The notes under the pieces: model-generated | What the model saw: only the letters and a program-made list of their open reading frames with translations | Database searches by the model: none | What the model was told of the DNA's origin: nothing | Made by a program: the position numbers and the translations under genes | Assembly (NCBI RefSeq): GCF_041886205.1 | Contig: NZ_CP169029.1 | Direction: 5' to 3' (one strand) | DNA from: Escherichia coli | GTDB taxonomy: Bacteria > Pseudomonadota > Gammaproteobacteria > Enterobacterales > Enterobacteriaceae | DNA: 64,000 nt | In this document: one piece after another, positions 54,279-57,424 of the stretch | Layout of the letters: each line of letters starts with the position of its first letter | How positions within the stretch are numbered: the first letter of the stretch is position 1

Positions 54279-57200
54279 AGTCCATCAGCGCCATCGTTGT
54301 TTTATGTTGAAGCCATCAATTAAATAACCGCACCACATACACTGTACTGTCAGTCATCCGCCGGAGTAAATCCAGCGTCATCGCCATCATGCAGTGAAGT
54401 TTATGTACTGATTTGCCGAAGAAACAGTTTTCGCGTCATGTCCGGTTATCAGCGCAAAGCCGCAGGTGTGCGCGTTCATCAACTCCCGCGTGTACATACG
54501 GAGCTTCATGTCACAACGACATGGCTATTGCCGGGAAGCCTGCTGGTCTTGCCACCGAATTTACAGCTTGTTTTCACCTTCTTTGTGGTGATGTTTGCCA
54601 GGCCACGTGATCAAACTGCTGGATTCACTGTTGTGAAATGTGTGGCCCTCCACCACACACACACACACTGGACCAATGATGCTTGAGCAACATGGTGATT
54701 ATCCTTTTGCCATACATGTCAATGCCCTCCTTTACTGTAACTGACCTTCGAACAAGTCAACGAGCCATCAGGCATGCGCACGTTAGGTGCAGGAATGTTG
54801 CCTAGAAATGTCACTCACACACACACTGTCTCAAATAATTGTTCAGATGCATGGGTACCTGTGTACACACACTCTCTCTTTATATAAAGACTAAATCTAT
54901 GTGGTTTGTAGATGTACATGTCTAGGTCAATGGCAGAAGACTTGACGAGCTGTTTCAATGACTAATTCTTTCCTTGCTGCCGACTGCCACGCCTTGTCGC
55001 CTTTGCCCAATAGCGCAGTATTCCATGAGCACCTCAGCCAATTGCATCTAAATGTTTAACCTTCAACCATTCCTGACTCCACTGTGGTAAGCCCACCACA
55101 CCATGCAAGCCCCAGCTTCAGAGAGGTGACTGGCCAATGGCTTCCTTGATGCATGCCCCCGCTGAGGCCCCAACCCGAGCTGTCACCTTGGGCTATAACG
55201 GTTCAAATTGACCTACACCGGGTGACCGACCTGATCTTTGCCGTTAGATCACGCACAGTCGAACACTTGCACCTGGTGCGTGGGTACCCCTTGTAAATGT
55301 GCAGTGGGCGTGCCACGTGTAACTGCCTTGTCGGCACCCTCGATGAGAGAGACTGACACAGTGTGCCGTCGGATTAGTTCAGAGCCCCAGAGTGCCCACA
55401 TTCCAGAGCTTTGAGCTGCCAGGTGATTAGTGGCACGAACAGGCTTCCCTTGCCAGGAGGACGTGACGGCGCTGAAGAACTTATTTTTTTATACTGCTGT
55501 GTGAACGGTTACACTACTGTGCTATGGGGTTTATGTAGATCCACTTGACCATTGTGTAAGCTGTTAAGAATAGAGTATTAGGGTTTATCATTTTAAGCAT
55601 GCTGTTGTGCGGGTAATGGTTTTTCAGCGATATACCGGGTAAGTGGGTACCAAAGTCGGTCACTCTCAGGCCCTTGTTGATCATGTCATGCTGCTGCATA
55701 GTTGCTGCTGCTGCCTCTTGCTGCCTTATCTTAGTGAGGTCGGCACGTCGGAAGCAGTGCCGCAGGTCGCCTTTCCGGTGTAATAGTTTTTCAGTTGACG
55801 ACGAATATATGTGCCATGGACACTGATTTTTATTGCTGTGGGTGTGTGTGTGCAGGTGGGTAAGAGTTGGACCCCCAAATACCATGTGTCTGTGTCATGC
55901 GCACTTTTGGGGTCAGAGCCCGTGGCGGCAATGGGAACAGTGCCACCAAGTTCAAGAATCCCTTGTGACTAGAAATCAACATTACGATGATCTTCTCCAA
56001 CCCCCACAGGGACCCTCTTCTTTGACTGAAGGGCAAGGGTAATTGGTGCCCTTCCATGGTGGCACGGCCCTAGGTGATGAAGGCTTATAAGAGACTCGAA
56101 CACGTGGAATTTGCTTTGACCTCGTGCTCCAGGGGTATGTTAGACCACCCACCTCTTACCCAGTGAGTGAACAAGTGGTTAATTAATTATTTTGGTGTTG
56201 TTACTGCAATGGCTTGTAGGGTTTGCCCCTCAATTCCAAATGTGTGACGAGAACAGTACCAGGTGAAGCGGGGACCAATTGTCCACGTCGGTACACAGAA
56301 CCACAAGCCCATAAAATATTGTTGTTGCTGTGGAAATGAGTCGAGCCAGCGTCGTCATGGTCAGCGAGATCCTTGCGGCAGTGTGGTGGTGGTATTTATA
56401 GAAGGGTTGTCGTCTTTGCAGAATTGATTTCAATGCCGGACGGTGGATCTTATCAGAGGCGTCAGAGCAGACCCGGCTGCGGTGGTGCTGAGACCTTGTC
56501 AACCACCTTTGCAATTGACTTGTCAATCTGTGTCTTGTGTCGTCATATGGTGGGGTTTGTTCAGTGAGTTGTTAATCATCTGCCAAGCCGACTTGGCCGA
56601 AGTGTAAGCCATCATGCTGACTCTTCCTCACACAGTCAATGTTGTGACTCCCAATCACAGAACCATCGGCACACGATCCATCGCTTGCTCAGGCCAGATA
56701 CCAGCTCCACCAATCTTTACTTTCGGCTCACCGTTGCCGGACTGCATTGTGCGGGCAGCCAGGTGCAAATCGAGCATCTTTCATCGAACTGCACGCCCTG
56801 TGAGGTGAAGCATCTCCATCATCAGTGTTGTGCGGGCCACTCGAATCCGCCTGCGCGAAGCTTTGCTGTTCCCAGACCATCCCGACTGTAGCCAGCTCCA
56901 TCACCAGCCTCGTGAGCCCGCTCTTTGCCAGCGCCAAGCATAGTTCCGGCATCACTGCTCCGTGTTCAAAGGCCGAGCTTGTCAAACGGTCCACCTGGAC
57001 AACAACCACTCGTGCTTTAGGTGTCGCCCATCGAGGTGTTCCATCGCGCCATCGGATAGAGTAGACTCCTCCAGGACTCCATCGAAGAGCTTGCTCGCGC
57101 ACCCAAGTGCGCTCAATGACGCGCTGGCTTCTCTTCACGCTGTGTTACTCGACGGTAGTTCGCAGGCAGTCCGCCCGAAGTAGAGTTGTTTATTCTGATC

Positions 57201-57424
57201 ACGAAGGAGCACAAGCGCCCGATCCGACAGAAGATTTAAAGACATCTCGCTTATGGACTGCGCGTAACAAAGTGCTTGCCAGAAGTGATGAAGTCGGTTT
57301 GCCAGTCGAAGCCGCCGCCACGCAGGAGATTTCTTTCAGTGCGGCAATCAGGTATTCGCGCTCTGACAGCGTCTGCGCTGCCTGGATATCGCGCATGGCC
57401 ACCATCCCCTGGCGGCGTTATGCC
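54279..57424 (-). other. Hyper-divergent, ORF-poor block occupying the position of hisF(5')-hisA-hisH-hisB-hisC(3'); degraded his remnant, or sequence/assembly artefact
   Basis: No ORF over 136 codons on the his strand across 3.1 kb; collinear but frameshifted His-like peptides (HisB-like ...QVDRLTSSAFEHGAVMPEL...QSFAQADSSGPHN at 56728-57138; HisH-like at 55830-56057; HisC-like [11 protein letters not shown] at 57199-57405); CA/TG dinucleotide runs; boundaries approximate. Confidence 0.7.

What the first reader, a model, noticed from the sequence alone, without database searches (positions are those of the whole stretch)
54279..57424. 3.1-kb ORF-less, hyper-divergent block sits exactly where hisF(5')-hisA-hisH-hisB-hisC(3') should be
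The flanks are canonical and intact: hisI plus the last 113 codons of hisF on the left (to ~54278), and hisL, hisG, hisD and the first 250 codons of hisC on the right (from ~57425). The interval is about the length expected for the missing his core (~3.0-3.1 kb). It has no ORF over 136 codons on the his strand and many stops and frame changes, yet broken frames keep collinear, degraded similarity to His enzymes. Minus strand 56728-57138 reads ...IRWRDGT...VQVDRLTSSAFEHGAVMPEL...LVMELATVG...QSFAQADSSGPHN, against the HisB N-terminal phosphatase ...IDRDGTL...FQVDRFDKLAFEPGVIPEL...LVMITNQDG...QSFPQADFDGPHN. 55830-56057 has a HisH-N-terminus-like stretch (FLNLV, TPKVRMTQ against NLNSV, EPKVSRDP). 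57199-57405 retains [11 protein letters not shown] of HisC in a shifted frame. So this is not inserted cargo or a mobile element but an in-place, length-preserving, heavily diverged copy. Purifying selection on a functional his operon cannot produce this. If real, the strain is a histidine auxotroph with five his genes inactivated in one contiguous patch. Otherwise it is a consensus or assembly error, or a synthetic/in-silico-altered segment.
Basis: partly seen in the sequence, partly recalled or inferred. Interest (0 to 1): 0.8.

Follow-up and report, generated by a model that had tools for sequence, protein, structure and literature searches.

The report
Corrupted copy of his operon core
A 3.1-kb stretch in the middle of an otherwise normal E. 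coli histidine operon is a badly garbled copy of the strain's own genes; it is almost certainly an error in how the sequence record was made, not something evolution produced.

Summary
Window 54276-57423 (3148 nt) replaces the native 3133 nt running from hisF codon ~146 to hisC codon ~251. It has no his ORFs. Its flanks match E. coli NT1N31 almost perfectly (3 mismatches in 1776 nt on the left, 0 in 4077 nt on the right).

The block is collinear with hisF-hisA-hisH-hisB-hisC along its whole length (z = 28 against shuffles). It has two abrupt noise regimes:
- 56651-57423: about 73% held-out identity, mostly insertions.
- 54276-56650: about 43% held-out identity.

Three results argue against evolution. 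Errors ignore codon position. Lineage-specific variants of the native allele survive. The replaced bases are not random: CpG→TpG on one strand only, CpG o/e 0.62, and four microsatellite-like runs that random mutation does not produce.

No terminal repeats, second copy or foreign source was found. The block is absent from 5,426 complete E. coli genomes, and every relative I read has an intact operon.

Verdict: not a real biological feature (about 0.9). It is either an uncorrected, very poor single-molecule read patch in an assembly or a computational alteration, and the sequence alone cannot separate these. A physically real hypermutated tract is at most about 5% likely.

The parts
53332..53943 (-). 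hisIE, intact (203 aa)
   Evidence: The ORF is. It is identical to the NT1N31 flank.
53937..54275 (-). hisF 3' remnant (codons ~147-258), native sequence
   Evidence: tblastn to HisF 147-204 is 100% identical. The first mismatch to L001 is at 54276.
54276..56650 (-). LEFT noise regime: garbled copy of hisF codons 1-146, hisA, hisH and hisB residues ~132-355
   Evidence: Collinear with the reference (z = 28; all 8 chunks match only in register). Optimised identity is 61% and held-out identity 43%. CpG o/e is 0.62 and TpG o/e 1.50, with strand-specific CpG-to-TpG change. blastn finds no match to any E. coli genome, plasmid or phage.
54654..54668 (.). (CA)n run created inside the block. Others are at 54816-54826 (CA)n, 55703-55714 (TGC)4 and 55842-55852 (GT)n.
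   Evidence: Four such runs lie in the block, none in the native segment and one in the other 60.9 kb. Randomly mutated references give a mean of 0.04 runs and never 4 in 500 trials.
56651..57423 (-). RIGHT noise regime: garbled copy of hisB residues 1-131 and hisC residues ~251-356
   Evidence: Optimised identity is 77% and held-out identity 73%, with 86 inserted bases, 18 deleted bases and 77 mismatches. There is a T-to-C / G-to-C bias on the + strand. Identity switches abruptly from 0.59 to 0.86 near 56650.
57424..58174 (-). hisC 5' part (250 codons), native sequence. It reads on into junk as a 307-aa ORF ending at 57251.
   Evidence: The ORF is. NCBIfam TIGR01141 (hisC) matches residues 11-250 only. 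There are 0 mismatches to L001 from 57424 to 61500.
58171..59475 (-). hisD, intact (434 aa)
   Evidence: The ORF is. The exact protein is found in many public genomes.
59481..60380 (-). hisG, intact (299 aa)
60427..60550 (-). his operon leader/attenuator (hisL)
   Evidence: Rfam RF00514, 131.6 bits, E = 2e-22.

Best explanation
The block is a noisy rendering of this strain's own hisF-hisC DNA, left in the sequence record when the record was produced. It is not a state of the chromosome.

The mechanism I commit to is an assembly artefact. One or two segments of very-low-quality single-molecule (long-read) sequence were used to span this interval and were never corrected. Short reads or other long reads cannot map to a draft that is only 43-73% identical, so polishing fixed the flanks and skipped the patch.

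The two regimes would be two reads or two read states. The strand-specific error biases reflect that a single strand was read. The CpG-poor, TpG-rich, microsatellite-prone replacement bases would reflect the prior of a neural basecaller when the signal is poor.

Shown: collinearity with the native allele, codon-blind indel-rich noise, two abrupt regimes, perfect flanks, non-random strand-specific noise, and absence from other genomes. Inferred: that the noise came from a sequencing and assembly process rather than a computational one.

Overall I put the probability that the block is non-biological at about 0.9, combining this explanation with the in-silico rival.
For: - Contrast with the flanks: 3 mismatches in 1776 nt and 0 in 4077 nt to L001 outside the block, against 27-57% of sites lost inside, with boundaries sharp to the base.
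- Collinear and in register throughout.
- Held-out identity does not depend on codon position: LEFT .40/.46/.44, RIGHT .75/.73/.71. Indels are mostly 1-2 nt, with no period of 3.
- With polymorphic sites masked, the best-fitting allele is the L001/L004/L007 type that also matches the flanks. Where that allele differs from the majority base of 15 alleles, the block keeps the minor variant 15 times against 4 (LEFT) and 7 against 0 (RIGHT).
- Identity switches abruptly at about 56650, and the two sides have different error spectra.
- In LEFT, 32% of CpG cytosines read T, against 10-15% in other contexts. The reciprocal G-to-A change is only 7%, as expected if one strand was read.
- The block is absent from 5,426 complete E. 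coli genomes. The three aberrant ORFs are not on record anywhere. All 31 related loci fetched by exact HisD, WzzB, Gnd or ManC carry native his genes as far as they extend, including a 99.78%-identical O157-cluster relative.
- It is the only stretch between 47060 and 64000 without 25-mers shared with relatives.
Against: - Typical raw nanopore reads are 83-89% accurate (Wick et al. 2019, PMC6591954). A 2.4-kb stretch at about 43% identity that still keeps register and length would be an exceptionally bad read.
- Indels are not homopolymer-linked. Isolated inserted bases equal a neighbour in only 18-29% of cases (about 44% expected at random), and new homopolymers of 5-7 nt appear. This is unlike known long-read error profiles.
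- No repeat or other feature explains why an assembly should break at 54275 and 57424.
- I could not find the source assembly, so neither its method nor its read support could be checked.
Confidence: 0.5

Rival explanations
1. In-silico alteration. The native 3133-nt segment was replaced or rewritten computationally. Candidates are a generative DNA or language model reproducing the his operon imperfectly, or a mutation simulator with a one-sided CpG rule. The result was spliced between untouched flanks.
For: - Boundaries are perfectly sharp and the flanks show no collateral damage.
- Error positions in LEFT are memoryless: autocorrelation is about 0, and the longest exact run is 14 against 14.7 expected for independent errors.
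- Inserted bases are equally A, C, G and T.
- The replacement statistics look vertebrate-like, with low CpG, high TpG and CA/TG/TGC runs, as expected from a model trained largely on eukaryotic DNA.
- One-sided CpG-to-TpG change fits either a rule coded on one strand or left-to-right generation of the his sense strand that avoids G after C.
- Identity is better in the first ~770 nt in the his-sense direction and worse afterwards.
- The aberrant ORFs and a 40-mer from the block are absent from every public collection searched.
- The noise level is far beyond normal read error.
Against: - Simple random mutation of the native sequence does not reproduce the CpG depletion or the microsatellite runs.
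- A model writing from memory would be expected either to keep ORFs or to lose register. Here there are no ORFs, yet register holds over 2.4 kb at 43% identity and lineage-specific minor variants survive.
- The length differs by 15 nt rather than being exactly preserved.
- No provenance information is available.
Confidence: 0.4
2. The block is physically real: a recent, catastrophic, localised hypermutation of the native allele, with substitutions plus indels across 3.1 kb. That would make the strain a histidine auxotroph.
For: - The underlying sequence is the lineage's own allele.
- The tract is contiguous and sharply bounded.
- The substitution spectra are strand-asymmetric, as enzymatic ssDNA damage would be.
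Against: - No known bacterial process removes 27-57% of the information in a tract while leaving adjacent bases untouched.
- All 12 substitution types plus about 18% indel columns occur, so there is no single mutational signature.
- CpG-specific C-to-T change has no basis in E. coli, which lacks CpG methylation (established knowledge).
- Two different regimes sit side by side.
- No template copy, reverse transcriptase or other element lies in the window.
- No relative carries it.
Confidence: 0.05
3. Homeologous recombination. The segment was replaced by a divergent, already pseudogenised his segment from another species or a distant lineage.
For: - The his-gnd-rfb neighbourhood is visibly mosaic in this window: an O157 cluster sits next to an NT1N31-like his flank.
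- The block is collinear with his.
Against: - Divergence from a once-functional orthologue should be concentrated at third codon positions, and it is not.
- The block keeps minor variants specific to the recipient lineage.
- blastn finds no better match in E. coli genomes, plasmids or phages, and an exact 40-mer is absent from 100,044 species representatives.
- CpG depletion and microsatellite runs are not enterobacterial features.
Confidence: 0.01
4. Inserted cargo or a mobile element that displaced the his core.
For: The block is ORF-poor and compositionally odd.
Against: - Every 300-nt chunk is homologous, in register, to the native genes.
- There are no terminal direct or inverted repeats and no transposase or integrase.
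- The length is preserved to 0.5%.
- There is no match to plasmids or phages.
Confidence: 0.005

Closest known systems
Uncorrected long-read patch or gap fill in a hybrid or polished bacterial assembly
   Same: Perfect flanks, a sharply bounded interval, codon-blind substitutions with many 1-2-nt indels, strand-specific error bias, and abrupt changes of error regime.
   Different: Identity (43-73% held-out) is far below typical raw read accuracy of 83-89% (PMC6591954). Indels are not homopolymer-linked. No reason for an assembly break is visible.
Output of a generative DNA or language model, or a mutation simulator, spliced into real sequence
   Same: Sharp splice points, memoryless error positions, drift toward CpG-poor and microsatellite-rich statistics, and absence from public records.
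   Different: Independent random mutation does not reproduce the block. A model writing from memory would not be expected to keep register and lineage-specific variants without keeping ORFs.
Natural his pseudogenes or histidine auxotrophy by gene decay or deletion
   Same: Loss of hisC, hisB, hisH, hisA and hisF function would give auxotrophy.
   Different: Natural decay is gradual and affects flanks comparably. Here the flanks are 99.8-100% identical to relatives while the tract has lost 27-57% of its sites.
Localised hypermutation systems (diversity-generating retroelements, deaminase-driven kataegis, targeted mutators)
   Same: Mutations confined to a bounded tract, with strand asymmetry.
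   Different: Those give one substitution class (at A, or C-to-T) at a few percent and almost no indels, and they need a template repeat plus reverse transcriptase or a deaminase. Here all substitution classes occur with about 18% indel columns, and no such element is present.
Mosaic alleles from recombination around the O-antigen/gnd/his region
   Same: Same chromosomal neighbourhood, which is visibly mosaic in this window.
   Different: Recombinant segments differ by a few percent, mostly at synonymous sites, and keep intact ORFs.

Membership tests
Functional his operon (hisL-GDCBHAFI) | Eight intact, collinear biosynthetic ORFs downstream of the leader | tested here: not met
   hisL, hisG, hisD and hisIE are intact. 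hisC is native only to codon 250. hisB, hisH and hisA have no ORF. hisF lacks its first ~146 codons.
Naturally diverged orthologue or pseudogene (vertical decay or homeologous replacement) | Differences concentrated at third codon positions, inherited from the period under selection | tested here: not met
   Held-out identity by codon position is .40/.46/.44 (LEFT) and .75/.73/.71 (RIGHT).
Naturally diverged orthologue or pseudogene (vertical decay or homeologous replacement) | Divergence of the tract commensurate with its flanks, or a donor lineage that can be found | tested here: not met
   Flanks show 3 mismatches in 1776 nt and 0 in 4077 nt. No donor was found in E. coli genomes, plasmids, phages or species representatives. 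The recipient lineage's minor variants are retained.
Mobile element or inserted cargo | Terminal repeats or target-site duplication, a mobility gene, and sequence unrelated to the replaced locus | tested here: not met
   No terminal repeats. No family hits for the block's ORFs. In-register homology throughout.
Diversity-generating retroelement or targeted hypermutation | A single substitution class (for example at adenines), few indels, and a template repeat plus reverse transcriptase nearby | tested here: not met
   All 12 substitution types occur, with 201+86 inserted and 252+18 deleted bases. The window holds no second copy of the block.
Uncorrected long-read assembly patch | A noisy, collinear copy of the native allele with codon-blind, indel-rich errors between accurate flanks | tested here: met
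Uncorrected long-read assembly patch | An error profile typical of the platform: homopolymer-linked indels and 83-89% identity | tested here: not met
   Inserted bases equal a neighbour in 18-29% of cases, against about 44% at random. Identity is 43-73%. The reference values are from PMC6591954.
Uncorrected long-read assembly patch | No support from independent reads; short reads restore the native sequence | not testable with these tools
   Neither the source assembly nor its reads could be identified.
In-silico or generative alteration | Provenance: an unaltered parent record identical outside the block | tested here: inconclusive
   The closest relatives are 99.78-100% identical in parts of the flanks, but none is identical over the whole window.

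The most novel reading that the evidence does not exclude
The tract is physically present in the isolate's chromosome: a sharply bounded 3.1-kb interval in which the cell's own his genes were hit by an unknown, extremely intense, strand-biased mutagenic process (substitutions plus indels) in very recent time. That would be a bacterial analogue of kataegis, far beyond any known intensity.
Probability: 0.03. Interest if true: 0.9.

Novelty: not a real feature. Interest (0 to 1): 0.07.

Why it matters
As biology it does not matter. The operon underneath is an ordinary E. coli his operon, and no new system is implied.

It matters for data quality. A record carrying this patch would be annotated with five his pseudogenes and would wrongly predict histidine auxotrophy. 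It would also inflate pseudogene and 'hyper-divergent locus' counts in pangenome or selection scans.

The checks used here give a quick recipe for telling garbled sequence from real divergence:
- cross-validated identity by codon position;
- retention of lineage-specific variants, measured with polymorphic sites masked during alignment;
- dinucleotide bias of the replaced bases.

If the tract were real, it would imply an unknown localised hypermutation process.

Tried and rejected
- **Biased allele test.** My first test suggested the block keeps about 78% of NT1N31-type variants. A control aligning to a different allele gave 38 against 39, so that test was biased by the alignment. I replaced it with an alignment in which polymorphic sites are masked and with held-out identity.
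- **Finding the source assembly.** Exact-protein look-ups of the three aberrant ORFs found nothing. Look-ups of exact HisD, WzzB, Gnd and ManC found many relatives, all with intact operons and none identical to the window.
- **Searching for the block elsewhere.** An exact 40-mer scan of 100,044 species representatives gave 0 hits. blastn of LEFT against plasmids and phages gave no match.
- **Function in the block's ORFs.** NCBIfam on the ORFs of both strands gave only chance-level hits, apart from HisC residues 11-250.
- **Other features in or around the block.** Rfam found only the His leader. I found no repeats, no boundary motifs and no second copy.
- **Random-mutation model.** Independent random mutation of the native sequence does not reproduce the CpG depletion or the repeat runs, so I rejected it.
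- **Periodic error structure.** No codon-like or token-like period appears in the error positions.
- **Not run.** I did not scan metagenome contigs. A negative result would add little and a positive one was very unlikely.
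Full report

Yes. On the his (minus) strand, no ORF longer than 136 aa lies between 54279 and 57250. This is the only long stretch of the 64-kb window without a stop-free frame of at least 150 codons: 3079 nt, against 1190 nt for the next longest.

The left flank holds hisIE and the last 113 codons of hisF. The right flank holds the first 250 codons of hisC, then hisD, hisG and the His leader (Rfam RF00514, 131.6 bits).

I aligned 52.5-61.5 kb to the best complete-genome match, E. coli NT1N31 (locus L001). Identity is 99-100% per 100-nt bin up to 54275 and from 57424 onward. Between those points it drops abruptly. Outside the block there are 3 mismatches in 1776 nt on the left and 0 in 4077 nt on the right. 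The block is 3148 nt where the native segment is 3133 nt.

**2. What is inside the block?**

It is a collinear copy of hisF(5')-hisA-hisH-hisB-hisC(3') along its whole length.

- *Right part (56651-57423).* It aligns at 77% identity, with 86 inserted bases, 18 deleted bases and 77 mismatches.
- *Left part (54276-56650).* blastn cannot detect any match to his genes, or to anything else, in 5,426 E. coli genomes, plasmids or phages. It is nevertheless clearly homologous in register. The global alignment scores 288, against -184 +/- 17 for shuffles (z = 28) and -185 to -207 for unrelated E. coli sequence or the reversed or complemented reference. Each of eight ~300-nt chunks matches only its own reference chunk, scoring 28-56 against 9-19 elsewhere.
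- *Protein level.* Weak tblastn hits fall where collinearity predicts: HisH 20-42 and 105-158, HisA 146-191, HisF 17-47.

Optimised alignments overstate identity at this noise level. I therefore masked every tenth reference site in turn and scored only the masked sites. True identity per reference site is 0.43 in the left part and 0.73 in the right part. The switch between the two regimes is abrupt: 0.59 to 0.86 between adjacent 50-nt bins near 56650.

**3. Is it evolutionary divergence?**

No, for four reasons.

- *Codon position.* Held-out identity does not depend on it: left .40/.46/.44, right .75/.73/.71. A sequence that diverged while functional would differ mostly at third positions.
- *Indels.* They are mostly 1-2 nt, with no preference for multiples of three and no periodicity.
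- *The underlying sequence is the lineage's own allele.* I masked the 332 sites that vary among 15 distinct E. coli his alleles so that the alignment could not favour any allele. The best-fitting allele is the L001/L004/L007 type, which also matches the flanks. Where that allele differs from the majority base, the block has the minor variant 15 times against 4 (left) and 7 against 0 (right). An earlier, unmasked version of this test was biased by the alignment, as a control showed, and I discard it.
- *Relatives are intact.* The flanks are essentially identical to relatives that carry intact operons. All 31 loci fetched through exact HisD, WzzB, Gnd or ManC proteins have native his genes as far as they extend. 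One of them, an O157-cluster relative, is 99.78% identical over 19.9 kb, and its alignment to the window stops exactly at 54275.

A tract that has lost 27-57% of its sites, next to flanks with at most 0.2% divergence, cannot come from ordinary mutation accumulation. Recombination with a foreign donor is excluded by the codon-position result, the retained lineage variants and the lack of any donor.

**4. What kind of noise is it?**

It is not uniform random mutation. In the left part:

| Measure | Block | Native segment |
|---|---|---|
| CpG count | 89 | 223 |
| TpG count | 245 | 136 |
| CpA count | 193 | 199 |

- A reference C followed by G reads T in 32% of cases, against 10-15% for C in other contexts. 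The reciprocal G-to-A change at CpG is only 7%. The bias therefore acts on one strand only.
- CpG o/e is 0.62 and TpG o/e is 1.50. References mutated at random with the block's own base composition give 1.06 +/- 0.06 and 0.99 +/- 0.06.
- Four microsatellite-like runs appear: (CA)7.5, (CA)5.5, (GT)5.5 and (TGC)4. The native sequence has none, the other 60.9 kb has one, and simulation gives a mean of 0.04 and never four.

The right part has a different spectrum: T-to-C and G-to-C on the + strand, insertion-dominated, with higher GC.

Error positions in the left part are memoryless. Autocorrelation is about 0, and the longest exact run is 14 against 14.7 expected for independent errors. The right part is slightly patchy and contains a 43-nt exact run. 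Isolated inserted bases rarely duplicate a neighbour: 18-29%, against about 44% expected at random.

No terminal repeats, second copy, mobility genes or RNA families are associated with the block.

**5. Explanation**

The block behaves like the strain's true sequence passed through a very noisy, strand-specific channel. Where information is lost, that channel fills in CpG-poor, TpG-rich, repeat-prone sequence. E. coli has no CpG methylation and no known process with these properties (established knowledge). I therefore judge it non-biological, at about 0.9. Two mechanisms remain, and I cannot separate them from sequence alone.

- *(a) An uncorrected patch of very poor single-molecule read sequence in an assembly; probability 0.5.* This accounts for the perfect polished flanks, the regime switch (two reads or two read states) and the single-strand bias. 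Against it, raw nanopore accuracy is normally 83-89% (Wick et al. 2019, PMC6591954), the indels are not homopolymer-linked, and nothing explains an assembly break at this position.
- *(b) A computational alteration, by a generative model or a simulator; probability 0.4.* This accounts for the sharp splices, the memoryless error positions, the eukaryote-like fill-in statistics and the absence of the aberrant ORFs and k-mers from public collections. The one-sided CpG effect also fits: it is what generation of the his-sense strand that avoids G after C would give, and the better-preserved part comes first in that direction. Against it, register and lineage variants are kept without ORFs, and simple random mutation does not reproduce the block.

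A physically real hypermutated tract is not strictly excluded without reads or PCR, but I put it at no more than 0.05.

**6. Comparison with known things, novelty and verdict**

The closest known things are an unpolished long-read patch and spliced synthetic sequence. The block fails the defining tests for a functional his operon, a natural pseudogene or orthologous replacement, a mobile element, and DGR-type or deaminase-type hypermutation (see the membership table).

I classify the finding as not a real feature, with interest 0.07. Its value is as a data-quality flag: the record would wrongly predict five his pseudogenes and histidine auxotrophy.

Noticed in passing
window 28300-28776: A tandem array of 4.9 copies of a 96-nt, REP/BIME-like palindromic unit lies between the colanic-acid genes wzxC and wcaK. 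NT1N31 has only about two copies here, and the megablast hits to it overlap themselves.
   Followed up: partly
window 35024-49270: This is an O157-type O-antigen gene cluster (wzx, wzy, per, gmd, fcl, manC, manB and others). Its downstream gnd-ugd-wzz-his flank is nearly identical to that of an O142 pig isolate (NT1N31). The best whole-region matches are O157:H16 strains at 98.5% and an unnamed assembly, GCA_052936215.1, at 99.78%. The region looks like a natural recombination mosaic around rfb.
   Followed up: partly
window 47159-48348: A 1.19-kb ORF-free gap lies inside the O157 cluster, between manB and the acetyltransferase gene. Positions 47448-48386 are 83.6% identical to a region of L024 that carries transposase-associated genes (DDE_Tnp_1_assoc, HTH_Tnp_1). 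It looks like a degraded H-repeat/IS remnant.
   Followed up: partly
window ~32758-32766 versus L002 34500-35267: NT1N31 carries an IS1 insertion downstream of wcaM that the window lacks. The two alignment pieces overlap by 9 nt in the window, which is consistent with the IS1 target-site duplication.
   Followed up: no
window 57107-57655 (+): A 182-aa ORF antisense to hisC spans the right boundary of the block. It has no family match and is probably a chance ORF in GC-rich antisense sequence.
   Followed up: partly
window 45791-47161 and 23966-25304: The window holds two phosphomannomutase paralogues: manB in the O-antigen cluster and cpsG in the colanic-acid cluster. They are about 96-97% identical to each other's counterparts in relatives, which makes them a possible substrate for recombination between the two clusters.
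   Followed up: no
window 60832-61361: The yefM-yoeB type II toxin-antitoxin pair sits immediately upstream of the his leader. It is intact and identical to NT1N31.
   Followed up: no
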